A stretch of DNA of 57,941 nucleotides from Octopus sinensis (taxonomy: Eukaryota): NCBI RefSeq assembly GCF_006345805.1, contig NW_021833619.1, positions 1 through 57,941 of the forward strand. Reading direction: 5' to 3'. How positions within the stretch are numbered: position 1 is the stretch's first letter; each line of letters begins with the position of its first letter. Made by a program: the position numbers. Shown piece after piece: positions 2,818-4,395 of this stretch.

Positions 2818-4317
2818 TATATATGTATATATGTATATATGTTTTGTATGTATGTATATATGTTATAGGTATATGTATATTTATGTATATATATATATCT
2901 ATATATACATACATACATACAATATATATATATATAATATAATATATATATTTAATCAATATAGGGTGCCAAAAAATTTTGTAGAATTTTTTTGCCACCA
3001 GCGGCCTAGTGGGAAAAAATTGAATAGTCATAGACCATTTTTAAGTTCAACATCACAATCAAGGAACGGCCATAATAGGCCATTCACCCACTAGAAATAA
3101 CAGCCAAAGCTTCAACCCGCAAATAAACATCAATTCCTTAAACCAGAGAAAATTAAAAAAACATTTACCCTGTAATTTCTTATACGATGCACCGTTTCAT
3201 CTACTGTTTAATGGTAAACTAACCTGATTAAATTAAATCAAGCCAATCTTCCATAGGCCCTTAGAATCATCAGTAAGAAATAGCAAGTCGGAACGATATT
3301 TTCACGAGGCATTTCCGACCCCGCCTCGGCAATATCTGACCTAAAATTTTCAATCATCGCAACTCGCGCCAAATTTATCGGCAGCAAATAAATATAAGCC
3401 GCCGATTCCATTACGGAATTACCAGAAAATTCACAATTAATCAATATAATGAATTTGAATTTTCTGGTTAATTCCGTAATGGAATCGGCGGCTTATATTT
3501 ATTTGCTGCCGATAAATTTGGCGCGAGTGCGATGATTTGAAATTTTTAGGTCAGATATTGCCGAGGCAGGGTCGGAAATGCCTCGTGAAAATATCTGTTC
3601 CGACTTGGCTATTTCTTACTGATGATTCTAAGTGCCTATGGAAGATTGCTTGATTTAATTTAATCAGGTTATTTGCCATTAAACAGTAGATGAAACGGTG
3701 CATCGTATAAGAAATTACAGGGTAAATGTTTTTTAATTTTCTCCTGGTTTACGGAATTGATGTTTATTTGCGGTTGAAGCTTTGGCTGTTATTTCTAGTG
3801 GGTGAATGGCCTATTATGGCCGTTCCTTGATTGTGATGTTGAACTTAAAAATGGTCTATGACTATTTAATTTTTCCCACTAGGCCGCTGGTGGCAAAAAA
3901 ATTCTACAAAATTTTTGCAACCCTATATTGATTAATTATGATTTTCTGGTTAATTCCGTAATGGAATCGGCGGCTTATATTTATTTGCTGCCGATAAATT
4001 TGGCGCGAGTGCGATGATTTAAAATTTTAGGTCAGATATTGCCGAGGCAGGGTCGGAAATGCCTCGTGAAAATATCTGTTCCGACTTGGCTATTTCTTAC
4101 TGATGATTCTAAGGGCCTATGGAAGATTGGCTTGATTTAATTTAATCAGGTTAGTTTACCATTAAACAGTAGATGAAACGGTGCATCGTATAAGAAATTA
4201 CAGGGTAAATGTTTTTTAATTTTCTCCTGGTTTACGGAATTGATGTTATTTGCGGTTGAAGCTTTGGCTGTTATTTCTAGTGGGTGAATGGCCTATTATG
4301 GCCGTTCCTTGATTGTG

Positions 4318-4395
<78 letters not shown>

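What the first reader, a model, noticed from the sequence alone, without database searches (positions are those of the whole stretch)
2952..4319. Retrozyme-like ~483-nt ribozyme-bearing monomer in tandem and inverted array; predicted self-excising, possibly circular RNA
Seen: a ~483-bp non-coding unit occurs three times between (TA)n tracts. Each copy has a complete type I hammerhead core, and the two tandem copies place GUA cleavage sites at 3707 and 4190. The inverted copy also runs about 15 nt past the monomer junction (3434-3448), so the source was multimeric or circularly permuted. G-U wobbles in several helices favour the HHR strand. Known: Penelope-like element pLTRs and metazoan non-LTR retrozymes carry type I HHRs, and tandem retrozymes yield circular RNAs. 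Inference: a non-autonomous, PLE-mobilised RNA element, long for a metazoan retrozyme and highly structured.
Basis: partly seen in the sequence, partly recalled or inferred. Interest (0 to 1): 0.9.

Follow-up and report, generated by a model that had tools for sequence, protein, structure and literature searches.

The report
Hammerhead-bearing retrozyme-like repeat in a microsatellite
A 483-base non-coding repeat, present as one inverted and almost two tandem copies inside a TA microsatellite, carries an atypical hammerhead self-cleaving motif and looks like a small parasitic retroelement of a known kind (an animal "retrozyme") rather than something new in principle.

Summary
It has an inverted copy (2952-3448), a full direct copy (3449-3931) and a truncated direct copy (3932-4319). 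The copies are 95-98% identical and (TA)n lies on both sides.

Each copy holds every conserved hammerhead core base, with an open 8-bp helix I and a 4-bp helix III capped by the palindromic loop UGCA. The GUA sites are at 3707, 4190 and 3183 (minus strand). This combination is rare by chance: 6 of 60,000 shuffled units match a looser definition.

The motif is atypical. Helix II is 66-68 nt long and starts with a U-U mismatch instead of G10.1-C11.1. No Rfam hammerhead model matches it, even at E<=10 on 126 nt. An active axolotl retrozyme ribozyme also has a U-U at that place.

A second, about 72% identical locus (33877-34090) has the same head-to-head layout, the same outer ends and (TA)n flanks. 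This matches the published insertion pattern of Penelope-like elements.

The most likely reading is a non-autonomous, Penelope-dependent retrozyme, a new member of a known kind. Cleavage, circular RNA, genome copy number and the partner element are untested.

The parts
2786..2951 (.). Left flank: impure (TA)n microsatellite that abuts the array
   Evidence: TRF row 2786-2951, period 2. The nearest perfect (TA)>=5 run lies 1 nt from 2952.
2952..3448 (-). Inverted copy: one whole unit plus about 12 nt of the preceding unit (TATATTGATTAA at both ends). Its outer end is unit position 483.
   Evidence: blastn 3441-2956 at 95.5%; alignment A1; inverted arms I1-I10.
3175..3281 (-). Hammerhead-like motif of the inverted copy: C3 at 3273, G12 at 3198, site A17 at 3183
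   Evidence: Descriptor hit with helices of 8, 4 and 4 bp. Constrained fold -31.7 against MFE -35.1 kcal/mol.
3442..3448 (.). Centre of the head-to-head junction, the loop of a hairpin of about 480 bp formed by the inverted copy and direct copy 1
   Evidence: I5: arms 3362-3441 and 3449-3528 with 7 nt between them. Generic long-hairpin miRNA models match 3348-3541 below their gathering scores.
3449..3931 (+). Direct copy 1, a full 483-nt unit
3611..3715 (+). Hammerhead-like motif 1. Helix I 3611-3618 pairs with 3708-3715. CUGAUGA is at 3619-3625. Helix II spans 3626-3691: a U-U mismatch, UCUA/UAGA, an internal loop, then a long hairpin. GAAA is at 3692-3695. Helix III spans 3695-3706 with loop UGCA. 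GUA is at 3705-3707, with predicted cleavage after 3707.
   Evidence: Read. Descriptor. The MFE keeps helices I and II. Hammerhead-constrained fold -25.6 against MFE -29.0 kcal/mol.
3708..4190 (+). The one complete monomer bracketed by two predicted cleavage sites; the predicted 483-nt linear and then circular RNA
   Evidence: Sites. Circular MFE -137.7 kcal/mol against shuffles -109.7 +/- 5.5, z -5.1. No open frame longer than 44 codons.
3932..4319 (+). Direct copy 2, which ends at unit position about 389 directly against (AT)n
   Evidence: blastn 3941-4319 at 98.2%; D7 100% to 4319.
4092..4198 (+). Hammerhead-like motif 2: C3 at 4100, G12 at 4175, site A17 at 4190
   Evidence: constrained fold -30.9 against MFE -34.3 kcal/mol.
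4320..4394 (.). Right flank: (AT)n(AC)n(AT)n microsatellite
   Evidence: Sequence; distance 0 to a (TA)>=5 run.
33877..34020 (-). Second locus, left arm: a diverged relative of unit positions 327-480. Its outer end is the same as the main array's left end and lies next to (TA)n.
   Evidence: nhmmer E 3.1e-10; sequence.
34024..34090 (+). Second locus, right arm: a relative of unit positions 320 to about 394. It lies head-to-head with the left arm and ends against (TA)n at almost the same unit position as the main array.
   Evidence: nhmmer E 0.0017; sequence; alignment A2.

Best explanation
The array is an insertion of a small non-autonomous retroelement of the animal non-LTR retrozyme kind, most likely copied by the reverse transcriptase and GIY-YIG endonuclease of a Penelope-like element (PLE) into a (TA)n microsatellite.

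Shown:
- The unit is a 483-nt non-coding, AT-rich, strongly self-paired sequence.
- It carries a type I hammerhead-like motif with all conserved core bases, an 8-bp helix I, a short helix III with a palindromic tetraloop, and an unusually long helix II that opens with a U-U mismatch.

Inferred mechanism:
1. A plus-strand transcript across the tandem part cleaves itself after A3707 and A4190, possibly helped by pairing of the two palindromic helix III segments as a double hammerhead.
2. This releases a 483-nt RNA with 5'-OH and 2',3'-cyclic phosphate ends.
3. A tRNA ligase (RtcB) closes it into a circle.
4. Circular or multimeric RNA is then the template for reverse transcription primed on cut (TA)n DNA. 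This yields copies longer than one unit, with a 5'-truncated inverted copy head-to-head, as is typical of PLE insertions.

The inverted copy plus the direct copy would also give a long double-stranded RNA hairpin if the locus were read through. I regard that as a by-product.
For: (1) Hammerhead motif in 3 of 3 copies, with invariant core, helix I and helix III. It is rare by chance: 1 of 300 window shuffles, 0 of 300 at the observed helix lengths, 6 of 60,000 unit shuffles, and 0 further hits in the real window at that stringency.
(2) Features I did not ask of the descriptor agree with animal type I hammerheads. Loop 3 (UGCA) is palindromic, and the 12-nt helix III segment pairs with itself at -17.5 kcal/mol. 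PMC4209133 (passages) lists palindromic loop 3 and positions 15.2-16.2 as a recurrent trait.
(3) The U-U at the base of helix II has a precedent in axolotl HHR_Amex2. That ribozyme has about 60,000 copies and cleaves 22% per hour as a monomer and better as a dimer (PMC7229834 Results).
(4) The hammerhead fold lies 3.4 kcal/mol above the MFE in each of the 3 copies, and helices I and II are already present in the MFE.
(5) The retrozyme traits listed in PMC7229834 are met: tandem units each with a type I hammerhead, GC 36.6%, no coding capacity, and a self-paired monomer (z -5.1).
(6) The unit length lies within 51-972 bp, and 75% of families have at most 7 units (preprint 10.64898/2026.07.22.740005, Results).
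(7) PLE-style insertion: a partial tandem, an adjacent inverted 5'-truncated copy and a (TA)n target (PMC8557442 passages). This is seen twice in the window with the same outer ends. All 4 ends lie 0-9 nt from a (TA)>=5 run, against a background of 9.5% of positions.
(8) Three helices in the 3' part keep pairing through double changes between the two loci.
Against: - No Rfam hammerhead model matches at any threshold tried.
- G10.1-C11.1, described as highly conserved (PMC4209133), is replaced by U-U.
- A helix II of 66-68 nt is far from the usual 4-8 bp.
- The three copies are too alike to give covariation in the ribozyme. 0 of 49 essential columns vary against 19 of 372 overall, P = 0.064, which is not significant.
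- The DNA ends (unit positions 483, about 389-394, about 1 and about 320) do not coincide with the predicted cleavage site at unit position 259/260.
- The second locus lacks the ribozyme part.
- No PLE RT or GIY-YIG domain turned up in the 77 of 208 open frames scanned.
- The PLE clade documented to prefer (TA)n, the Naiads, lacks canonical hammerheads.
- There are no transcript or cleavage data, and no eukaryotic genome collection was available for a copy census.
- The minus strand is as structured as the plus strand (z -5.0), so the structure could act at the DNA level.
Confidence: 0.6

Rival explanations
1. The element is a PLE-dependent short non-autonomous element whose hammerhead-like motif is a decayed or inactive relic of a pLTR ribozyme. 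The tandem and inverted layout comes only from the peculiar PLE integration reaction. No self-cleaved or circular RNA takes part.
For: - The layout and the (TA)n target are what PLEs produce with any template.
- The DNA ends do not map to the cleavage site.
- U-U at 10.1/11.1 and the long helix II may cripple catalysis, and Rfam finds nothing.
- The second locus was propagated or retained without the ribozyme part.
- PLE ribozymes themselves cleave poorly in vitro (PMC4209133).
Against: - The core, helix I and helix III are intact in 3 of 3 copies.
- A U-U variant is active in axolotl.
- The direct part is 1.8 units long, so the template spanned more than one unit. A circle or multimer explains this simply.
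Confidence: 0.2
2. The hammerhead resemblance is coincidental. The locus is a DNA-level palindromic or foldback repeat, a tandem-repeat-bearing MITE or Helitron-like element, or a microsatellite-associated duplication.
For: - Both strands are equally structured (z -5.1 and -5.0).
- The two loci share defined outer ends, as a cut-and-paste or rolling-circle DNA element would.
- A conserved hairpin lies about 12 nt before the right end.
- The head-to-head junctions are nearly symmetric.
- Rfam is negative.
Against: - A chance hammerhead of this quality in a unit of this composition: 6 of 60,000 shuffles at looser settings.
- The outer ends are not inverted repeats of each other. The right end 4254-4319 pairs with 3052-3117, which is 100 nt inside the left end.
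- By inspection there is no 5'-TC / CTRR-3' Helitron terminus; the consensus is recalled from memory.
- No transposase or Rep/helicase frame lies nearby apart from an unrelated mariner fragment at 1778-1990.
Confidence: 0.15
3. The inverted and tandem array is an assembly artefact at a microsatellite-rich, palindromic site.
For: PMC8557442 notes that such structures often cause assembly problems. The window is packed with microsatellites.
Against: - The three copies differ at 19 of 372 columns, each with private changes. A collapsed or duplicated read artefact would not produce that.
- A second locus shows the same layout.
Confidence: 0.05

Closest known systems
Metazoan non-LTR retrozymes (Cervera and de la Pena 2020, PMC7229834): coral about 225-245 nt, mussel about 350-390 nt, axolotl 331 and 353 nt
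   Same: - Short tandem units, each with a type I hammerhead.
- Low GC, non-coding, self-paired monomer.
- Short helix III with a tetraloop.
- A U-U at the base of helix II, as in axolotl HHR_Amex2.
   Different: - The unit is 483 nt, above the 170-400 nt of that paper but inside the 51-972 bp of the 2026 preprint.
- Helix II is 66-68 nt with an internal loop and a long hairpin, instead of about 4 bp plus a loop.
- Only 1.8 direct units plus an inverted one.
- Expression and circularity are unknown.
- Not detected by Rfam.
Penelope-like elements and their pLTR hammerheads (PMC4209133; PMC8557442)
   Same: - Partial tandem plus an adjacent inverted 5'-truncated copy.
- Insertion into (TA)n with no discernible target-site duplication.
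- A hammerhead inside the repeated part.
   Different: - No RT/GIY-YIG frame here, and the unit is about 0.5 kb rather than 3-4 kb.
- PLE hammerheads are usually minimal: no or tiny helix III, G10.1-C11.1 kept, and an extra base after A9.
- The (TA)n-preferring Naiads lack canonical hammerheads.
Hammerhead-bearing satellite DNAs: newt satellite 2 (about 330 bp) and Dolichopoda pDo500 (PMC2837043; the monomer size of about 500 bp is recalled)
   Same: A repeat unit of a few hundred bp with a type I hammerhead that may act as a double hammerhead.
   Different: Those form long arrays. Here there are 2.8 copies, with an inverted member, inside a microsatellite.
Rfam hammerhead families. The accessions Hammerhead_1 RF00163, Hammerhead_3 RF00008, HH9 and HH10 are recalled; the search covered all 4227 families.
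   Same: The conserved core bases and the three-helix junction.
   Different: No model scores at E<=10 even on 126 nt. The long helix II and the U-U closing position are the likely reasons; this is my inference.

Membership tests
Hammerhead ribozyme, type I | Conserved core: C3 U4 G5 A6 N7 G8 A9, G12 A13 A14, A15.1-U16.1, and H17 that is not G | tested here: met
   CUGAUGA, GAAA, U16.1 and A17 are present and invariant in 3 of 3 copies.
Hammerhead ribozyme, type I | Three helices around the core, with helix I open and helices II and III closed | tested here: met
   Helix I is 8 bp (plus 4 bp beyond an internal loop). Helix II is closed by a long hairpin. Helix III is 4 bp plus the UGCA loop.
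Hammerhead ribozyme, type I | G10.1-C11.1 pair at the base of helix II | tested here: not met
   U-U in all 3 copies. A precedent for U-U exists in the active axolotl HHR_Amex2.
Hammerhead ribozyme, type I | Match to an Rfam hammerhead covariance model | tested here: not met
   0 matches at gathering score. No hammerhead at E<=10 on 1501 nt or on 126 nt.
Hammerhead ribozyme, type I | Site-specific self-cleavage | not testable with these tools
   Needs in vitro transcription.
Hammerhead ribozyme, type I | Tertiary contact between loop 1 and loop 2 | tested here: inconclusive
   Internal loops lie 8 bp into helix I and 5 positions into helix II. No way to test a contact here.
Metazoan non-LTR retrozyme | [quoted passage not shown] | tested here: met
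   Sites lie 483 nt apart in the direct copies. The array is short, at 1.8 units.
Metazoan non-LTR retrozyme | GC below 50%, non-coding | tested here: met
   GC is 36.6%. The longest stop-free run is 44 codons. No Pfam match for the 3 frames inside the array. LTR, PBS and PPT were not searched for.
Metazoan non-LTR retrozyme | Highly self-paired monomer | tested here: met
   Circular MFE -137.7 kcal/mol, z -5.1. The minus strand is equally structured.
Metazoan non-LTR retrozyme | Expressed as linear and circular RNA | not testable with these tools
   No transcript data.
Metazoan non-LTR retrozyme | Multi-copy in the genome and co-occurring with PLEs | not testable with these tools
   No eukaryotic genome collection was on hand. 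Within the window there is one further diverged locus and no PLE domain in 77 of 208 frames.
PLE-type insertion | Partial tandem with an adjacent inverted 5'-truncated copy | tested here: met
   Main array and second locus.
PLE-type insertion | Microsatellite target | tested here: met
   All 4 of 4 ends lie 0-9 nt from a (TA)>=5 run, against a background of 9.5% of positions.
PLE-type insertion | A 30-40-bp tail at one end | tested here: inconclusive
   In both loci the minus-strand arm reaches about 94 nt further (unit position 483) than the plus-strand arm (about 389-394). This is longer than the published tail.
Foldback or MITE-type DNA transposon | Terminal inverted repeats at the outermost ends, plus a target-site duplication | tested here: not met
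   The right end pairs with 3052-3117, not with the left terminus. A target-site duplication cannot be read in (TA)n.
Hammerhead satellite DNA | Long homogeneous tandem arrays | tested here: not met
   Only 2.8 copies, one of them inverted.

The most novel reading that the evidence does not exclude
This may be an active hammerhead of an unrecognised architecture. A U-U replaces G10.1-C11.1, and loop 2 is replaced by an internal loop that opens into a branched extension of about 55 nt. Both covariance-model and descriptor searches would miss such a motif, which would point to a hidden population of retrozymes in microsatellite-rich invertebrate genomes. Its two loci in one window would then show directly, through shared asymmetric ends, head-to-head 5' truncation and a (TA)n target, that retrozymes are integrated by the PLE machinery. 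So far that has been argued from co-occurrence and sequence relatedness.
Probability: 0.3. Interest if true: 0.55.

Novelty: new member of a known kind. Interest (0 to 1): 0.4.

Why it matters
If the ribozyme is active, this family widens the known shape of natural type I hammerheads, and it shows that standard Rfam scans under-count retrozymes. The insertion anatomy is seen twice here: a tandem part plus an inverted 5'-truncated copy, the same two outer ends, and a (TA)n target. This is structural evidence for mobilisation of retrozymes by Penelope-like elements. The papers I read support that link by co-occurrence and by similarity to pLTRs. If the ribozyme is inactive, this is one more decayed repeat in a repeat-rich genome.

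Tried and rejected
- Rfam at three depths found no ribozyme family of any class on either strand. The strong hits to plant miRNA families and to a Wolbachia sRNA at 3348-3541 only reflect the long hairpin at the head-to-head junction. All lie below their gathering scores, so I rejected them.
- G-U wobble count as a sign of strand selection: rejected. There are 22 pairs against 30.2 +/- 4.5 in shuffles, and the z-scores of the two strands are equal.
- Constraint on the ribozyme among the three copies: 0 of 49 essential columns vary, P = 0.064. This is not significant.
- Two further weak hammerhead-like hits, at 33362-33422 and 34520-34603, appear at the loosest setting (4,2,2). Chance gives 69 hits in 300 shuffles, so I treated them as chance.
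- A 21-nt identity at 38949-38969 has no further similarity around it.
- Search for PLE RT or GIY-YIG: Pfam on 77 of 208 stop-to-stop frames of at least 60 aa. I took 43 picked by eye from the list, plus 34 near the two loci. The other 131 frames were not scanned. Result: one mariner Transposase_1 fragment and one sub-threshold ACT_6 match.
- One protein search, with the frame at 30507-31061, showed a LINE-type RT relative (3 hits carrying PF00078). It gave no organism.
- An exact 30-mer of the ribozyme gave 0 hits in the prokaryotic genome collection.
- Helitron and MITE readings were rejected on the termini.
No eukaryotic genome or read collection was available. The supplementary figures of PMC7229834 and PMC4209133, which show invertebrate hammerhead families, could not be seen. 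They might already include long-helix-II variants.
- My literature searches were not designed to show that such a variant is unpublished, and I make no such claim.
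Full report
**Observation.** The sequence at 2952-4319 is a compact array of one repeat unit of 483 nt. Direct-repeat families link 3449-3931 to 3932-4319 with a spacing of 481-483 nt. Inverted arms of 47-159 nt link 2952-3448 to both direct copies. A blastn of the unit against the whole window finds three copies: 3449-3931; 3441-2956 at 95.5%; and 3941-4319 at 98.2%. 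Over the shared 372 columns the copies are 98.1, 95.2 and 96.5% identical, and each carries private changes. The inverted copy holds the last 12 nt of a preceding unit at its inner end. Direct copy 2 stops at unit position about 389, directly against (AT)n. The left end abuts an impure (TA)n tract. The unit is non-coding: the longest stop-free run on a trimer is 44 codons in any of 6 frames. The three frames inside the array have no Pfam match.

**The hammerhead motif.** Each copy reads, 5' to 3', in this order:
- AUUUCUUA, the 5' strand of helix I
- CUGAUGA
- a helix II segment of 66-68 nt
- GAAA
- CGG-UGCA-UCG, which completes helix III; the last A of GAAA and the U of GUA form its fourth pair, A15.1-U16.1
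- U-A, the cleavage site GUA
- UAAGAAAU, the 3' strand of helix I

All conserved core bases are present and invariant in 3 of 3 copies. The predicted cleavage sites are after 3707, after 4190, and after 3183 on the minus strand. Helix I is open, so the layout is type I.

The unconstrained fold already forms helix I and the long helix II. The full hammerhead fold lies 3.4 kcal/mol above the MFE in each copy: -25.6 against -29.0, -30.9 against -34.3, and -31.7 against -35.1 kcal/mol. The competing pairing is CUGAU with AUCGU.

**Is it more than chance?** I wrote a deliberately loose descriptor. It requires:
- CUGANGA, then GAAA 6-120 nt downstream
- a mismatch allowed at 10.1/11.1
- A15.1-U16.1 and H17
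- contiguous helices of given minimum lengths

At (I>=6, II>=3, III>=3) it finds only the three copies in the real window. It finds 1 hit in 300 dinucleotide shuffles of the window, and 0 in 300 at the observed (8,4,4). It hits 6 of 60,000 shuffles of the unit read on both strands in tandem context. At the loosest setting (4,2,2) chance hits are common: 60 of 300 window shuffles have at least one. The two extra real hits at that setting, 33362-33422 and 34520-34603, are no more than chance.

Two traits that the descriptor did not require also fit animal type I hammerheads. Loop 3 is the palindrome UGCA. The 12-nt helix III segment pairs with a second copy of itself at -17.5 kcal/mol, as needed for a double hammerhead. 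PMC4209133 lists the palindromic nature of 15.2-16.2 and of loop 3 among the recurrent traits (passages).

**What speaks against a canonical hammerhead.**
- No Rfam hammerhead model matches. There are 0 matches of any family at gathering score on the window. None of the 33 matches at E<=10 on 2900-4400 is a hammerhead. The only match on 4085-4210 is a 7.9-bit hit to a coronavirus 3'UTR model.
- The base of helix II is U-U. PMC4209133 calls the usual G10.1-C11.1 pair highly conserved.
- Helix II consists of the U-U, then 4 bp (UCUA/UAGA), then an internal loop and a long imperfect hairpin. The usual form is about 4 bp closed by a loop.

The U-U has a documented precedent. [quoted passage not shown] It still cleaves 22% in one hour as a monomer, and much better as a dimer (PMC7229834, Results). 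I found no precedent for the long helix II in what I read.

With only three near-identical copies there is no covariation in the ribozyme. 0 of 49 essential columns vary against 19 of 372 overall, P = 0.064.

**The rest of the unit.** The 483-nt monomer 3708-4190 folds, as a circle, to -137.7 kcal/mol. Dinucleotide shuffles give -109.7 +/- 5.5, so z is -5.1. The minus strand gives -100.0 against -71.7 +/- 5.7, so z is -5.0. The plus strand is more stable because it is 59% G+U. Its 22 G-U pairs are fewer than the 30.2 +/- 4.5 found in shuffles, and 79 of 80 shuffles have at least 22. The structure could serve either strand, or the DNA.

**A second locus.** A profile of the three copies finds a diverged relative at 33877-34090. 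The minus-strand arm 33877-34020 corresponds to unit positions 327-480 (E 3.1e-10). After a 9-nt spacer comes a plus-strand arm, 34024-34090, corresponding to positions 320 to about 394 (E 0.0017).

This locus repeats the anatomy of the main array:
- The two arms lie head-to-head.
- Both arms are 5'-truncated at nearly the same unit position.
- The left outer end reads TTAAT.AAT..TAGGGT and corresponds to unit position 483.
- The right outer end lies at about 389-394.
- (TA)n is on both sides.

All four ends of the two loci lie 0-9 nt from a perfect (TA)>=5 run. Only 9.5% of window positions lie inside or within 12 nt of such a run, which gives about 0.009 for two independent insertions.

I projected the fold of direct copy 1 onto an alignment of both loci (5 rows, 2 lineages). 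Three helices each keep one pair through a change on both sides. 86.5% of cells are paired, against 34-49% when the partners are slid. The structure came from one of the rows, so the paired percentage leans its way. The second locus has no ribozyme part.

**Interpretation.** The layout matches what is published for Penelope-like elements (PLEs). Insertions are often partial tandems. [quoted passage not shown] There may be an extension at one end. Target-site duplications cannot be discerned because of a strong bias for microsatellites, which is (TA)n for Naiads, and a similar bias has been proposed for Neptune (PMC8557442, passages).

The unit also meets the stated traits of animal non-LTR retrozymes: tandem units with a type I hammerhead, GC below 50%, and a self-paired monomer (PMC7229834, Results parts 1-2). 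A 2026 preprint reports consensus lengths of 51-972 bp, at most 7 units in 75% of families, and sequence relatedness to PLE pLTRs (10.64898/2026.07.22.740005, abstract and Results). So 483 nt and a 1.8-unit array are ordinary.

I conclude, with confidence 0.6, that this is a PLE-dependent non-autonomous retrozyme whose tandem transcript would cut itself at 3707 and 4190, and that the 483-nt product would be circularised by a tRNA ligase. Every step after "the motif is there" is inferred.

**Points that do not fit neatly.**
- The DNA ends do not coincide with the cleavage site at unit position 259/260. This is compatible with circular or multimeric templates, but it gives them no support.
- In both loci the minus-strand arm reaches about 94 nt further 3' than the plus-strand arm. 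This is longer than the published 30-40-bp tail.
- The (TA)n-preferring Naiads lack canonical hammerheads.
- No RT or GIY-YIG domain was found in the 77 of 208 frames scanned. The only transposon proteins seen are a mariner fragment at 1778-1990 and a LINE-type RT C-terminus at 30507-31061.

**Rivals.**
- An inactive ribozyme relic in a PLE-dependent element: 0.2.
- A coincidental motif in a DNA-level palindromic or MITE/Helitron-like repeat: 0.15. Against this, the outer ends are not inverted repeats, since the right end pairs 100 nt inside the left end. Chance also rarely produces the motif.
- Misassembly: 0.05. Against this stand the private differences among the copies and the second locus.

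**Limits.** The organism was not identified, and the window is simply very rich in microsatellites and SINE-like repeats. No eukaryotic genome, read or transcript collection was available. Copy number, conservation of the core across copies, expression and the partner element all remain open.

**Verdict.** This is a new member of a known kind with an atypical ribozyme, of moderate interest (0.4).

Noticed in passing
window 33865-34095: A second member of the same repeat family, about 72% identical, made of two head-to-head 5'-truncated arms inside (TA)n. It has the same outer ends as the main array and no ribozyme part.
   Followed up: yes
window 3801-3822, 4283-4304, 3067-3088 (-); 33966-33987 (-), 34059-34080: A hairpin, GAAUGGCC-UAUUAU-GGCCGUUC, lies about 12-16 nt before the plus-strand 3' end of both loci. 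It is kept through an A-U to G-C double change. It may be a recognition stem for the reverse transcriptase.
   Followed up: partly
window 33362-33422 and 34520-34603 (+): Two weak hammerhead-like matches (CUGAUGAG...GAAA with helices of 2-4 bp) flank the second locus at a distance of about 450 nt. The second has GAAACGGUCGUA, which resembles the main motif without its loop. Their number is compatible with chance.
   Followed up: partly
window 12339-12629, 21725-22187, 23395-23849, 28792-29199, 36288-36648, 46879-47163, 34604-34700: A SINE-like repeat occurs many times, recognisable by the same pseudo-translation (…RGQTRTDKRIKSI..TPVRNWYLIYRPRKDERQSRPRRNLNSER…). At 23395-23762 it forms a 184-bp tandem pair. 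At 34604-34700 there is a segment that looks tRNA-like by eye.
   Followed up: no
window 1778-1990 (-): A mariner-type transposase fragment (Pfam Transposase_1, E 6.7e-07) lies about 1 kb upstream of the array. There is no sign that it is connected to the array.
   Followed up: partly
window 30507-31061 (-): The C-terminal part of a LINE-type reverse transcriptase. It has 3 database relatives carrying PF00078, two of which also carry PF14529.
   Followed up: partly
window 51264-53564: A very long compound simple repeat: (GT)n of about 380 bp, followed by a trinucleotide array of about 1.4 kb (period 3, CAT).
   Followed up: no
window 38949-38969 (-): A 21-nt stretch, 20 of 21 identical to unit positions 330-350, with no further similarity around it.
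   Followed up: partly
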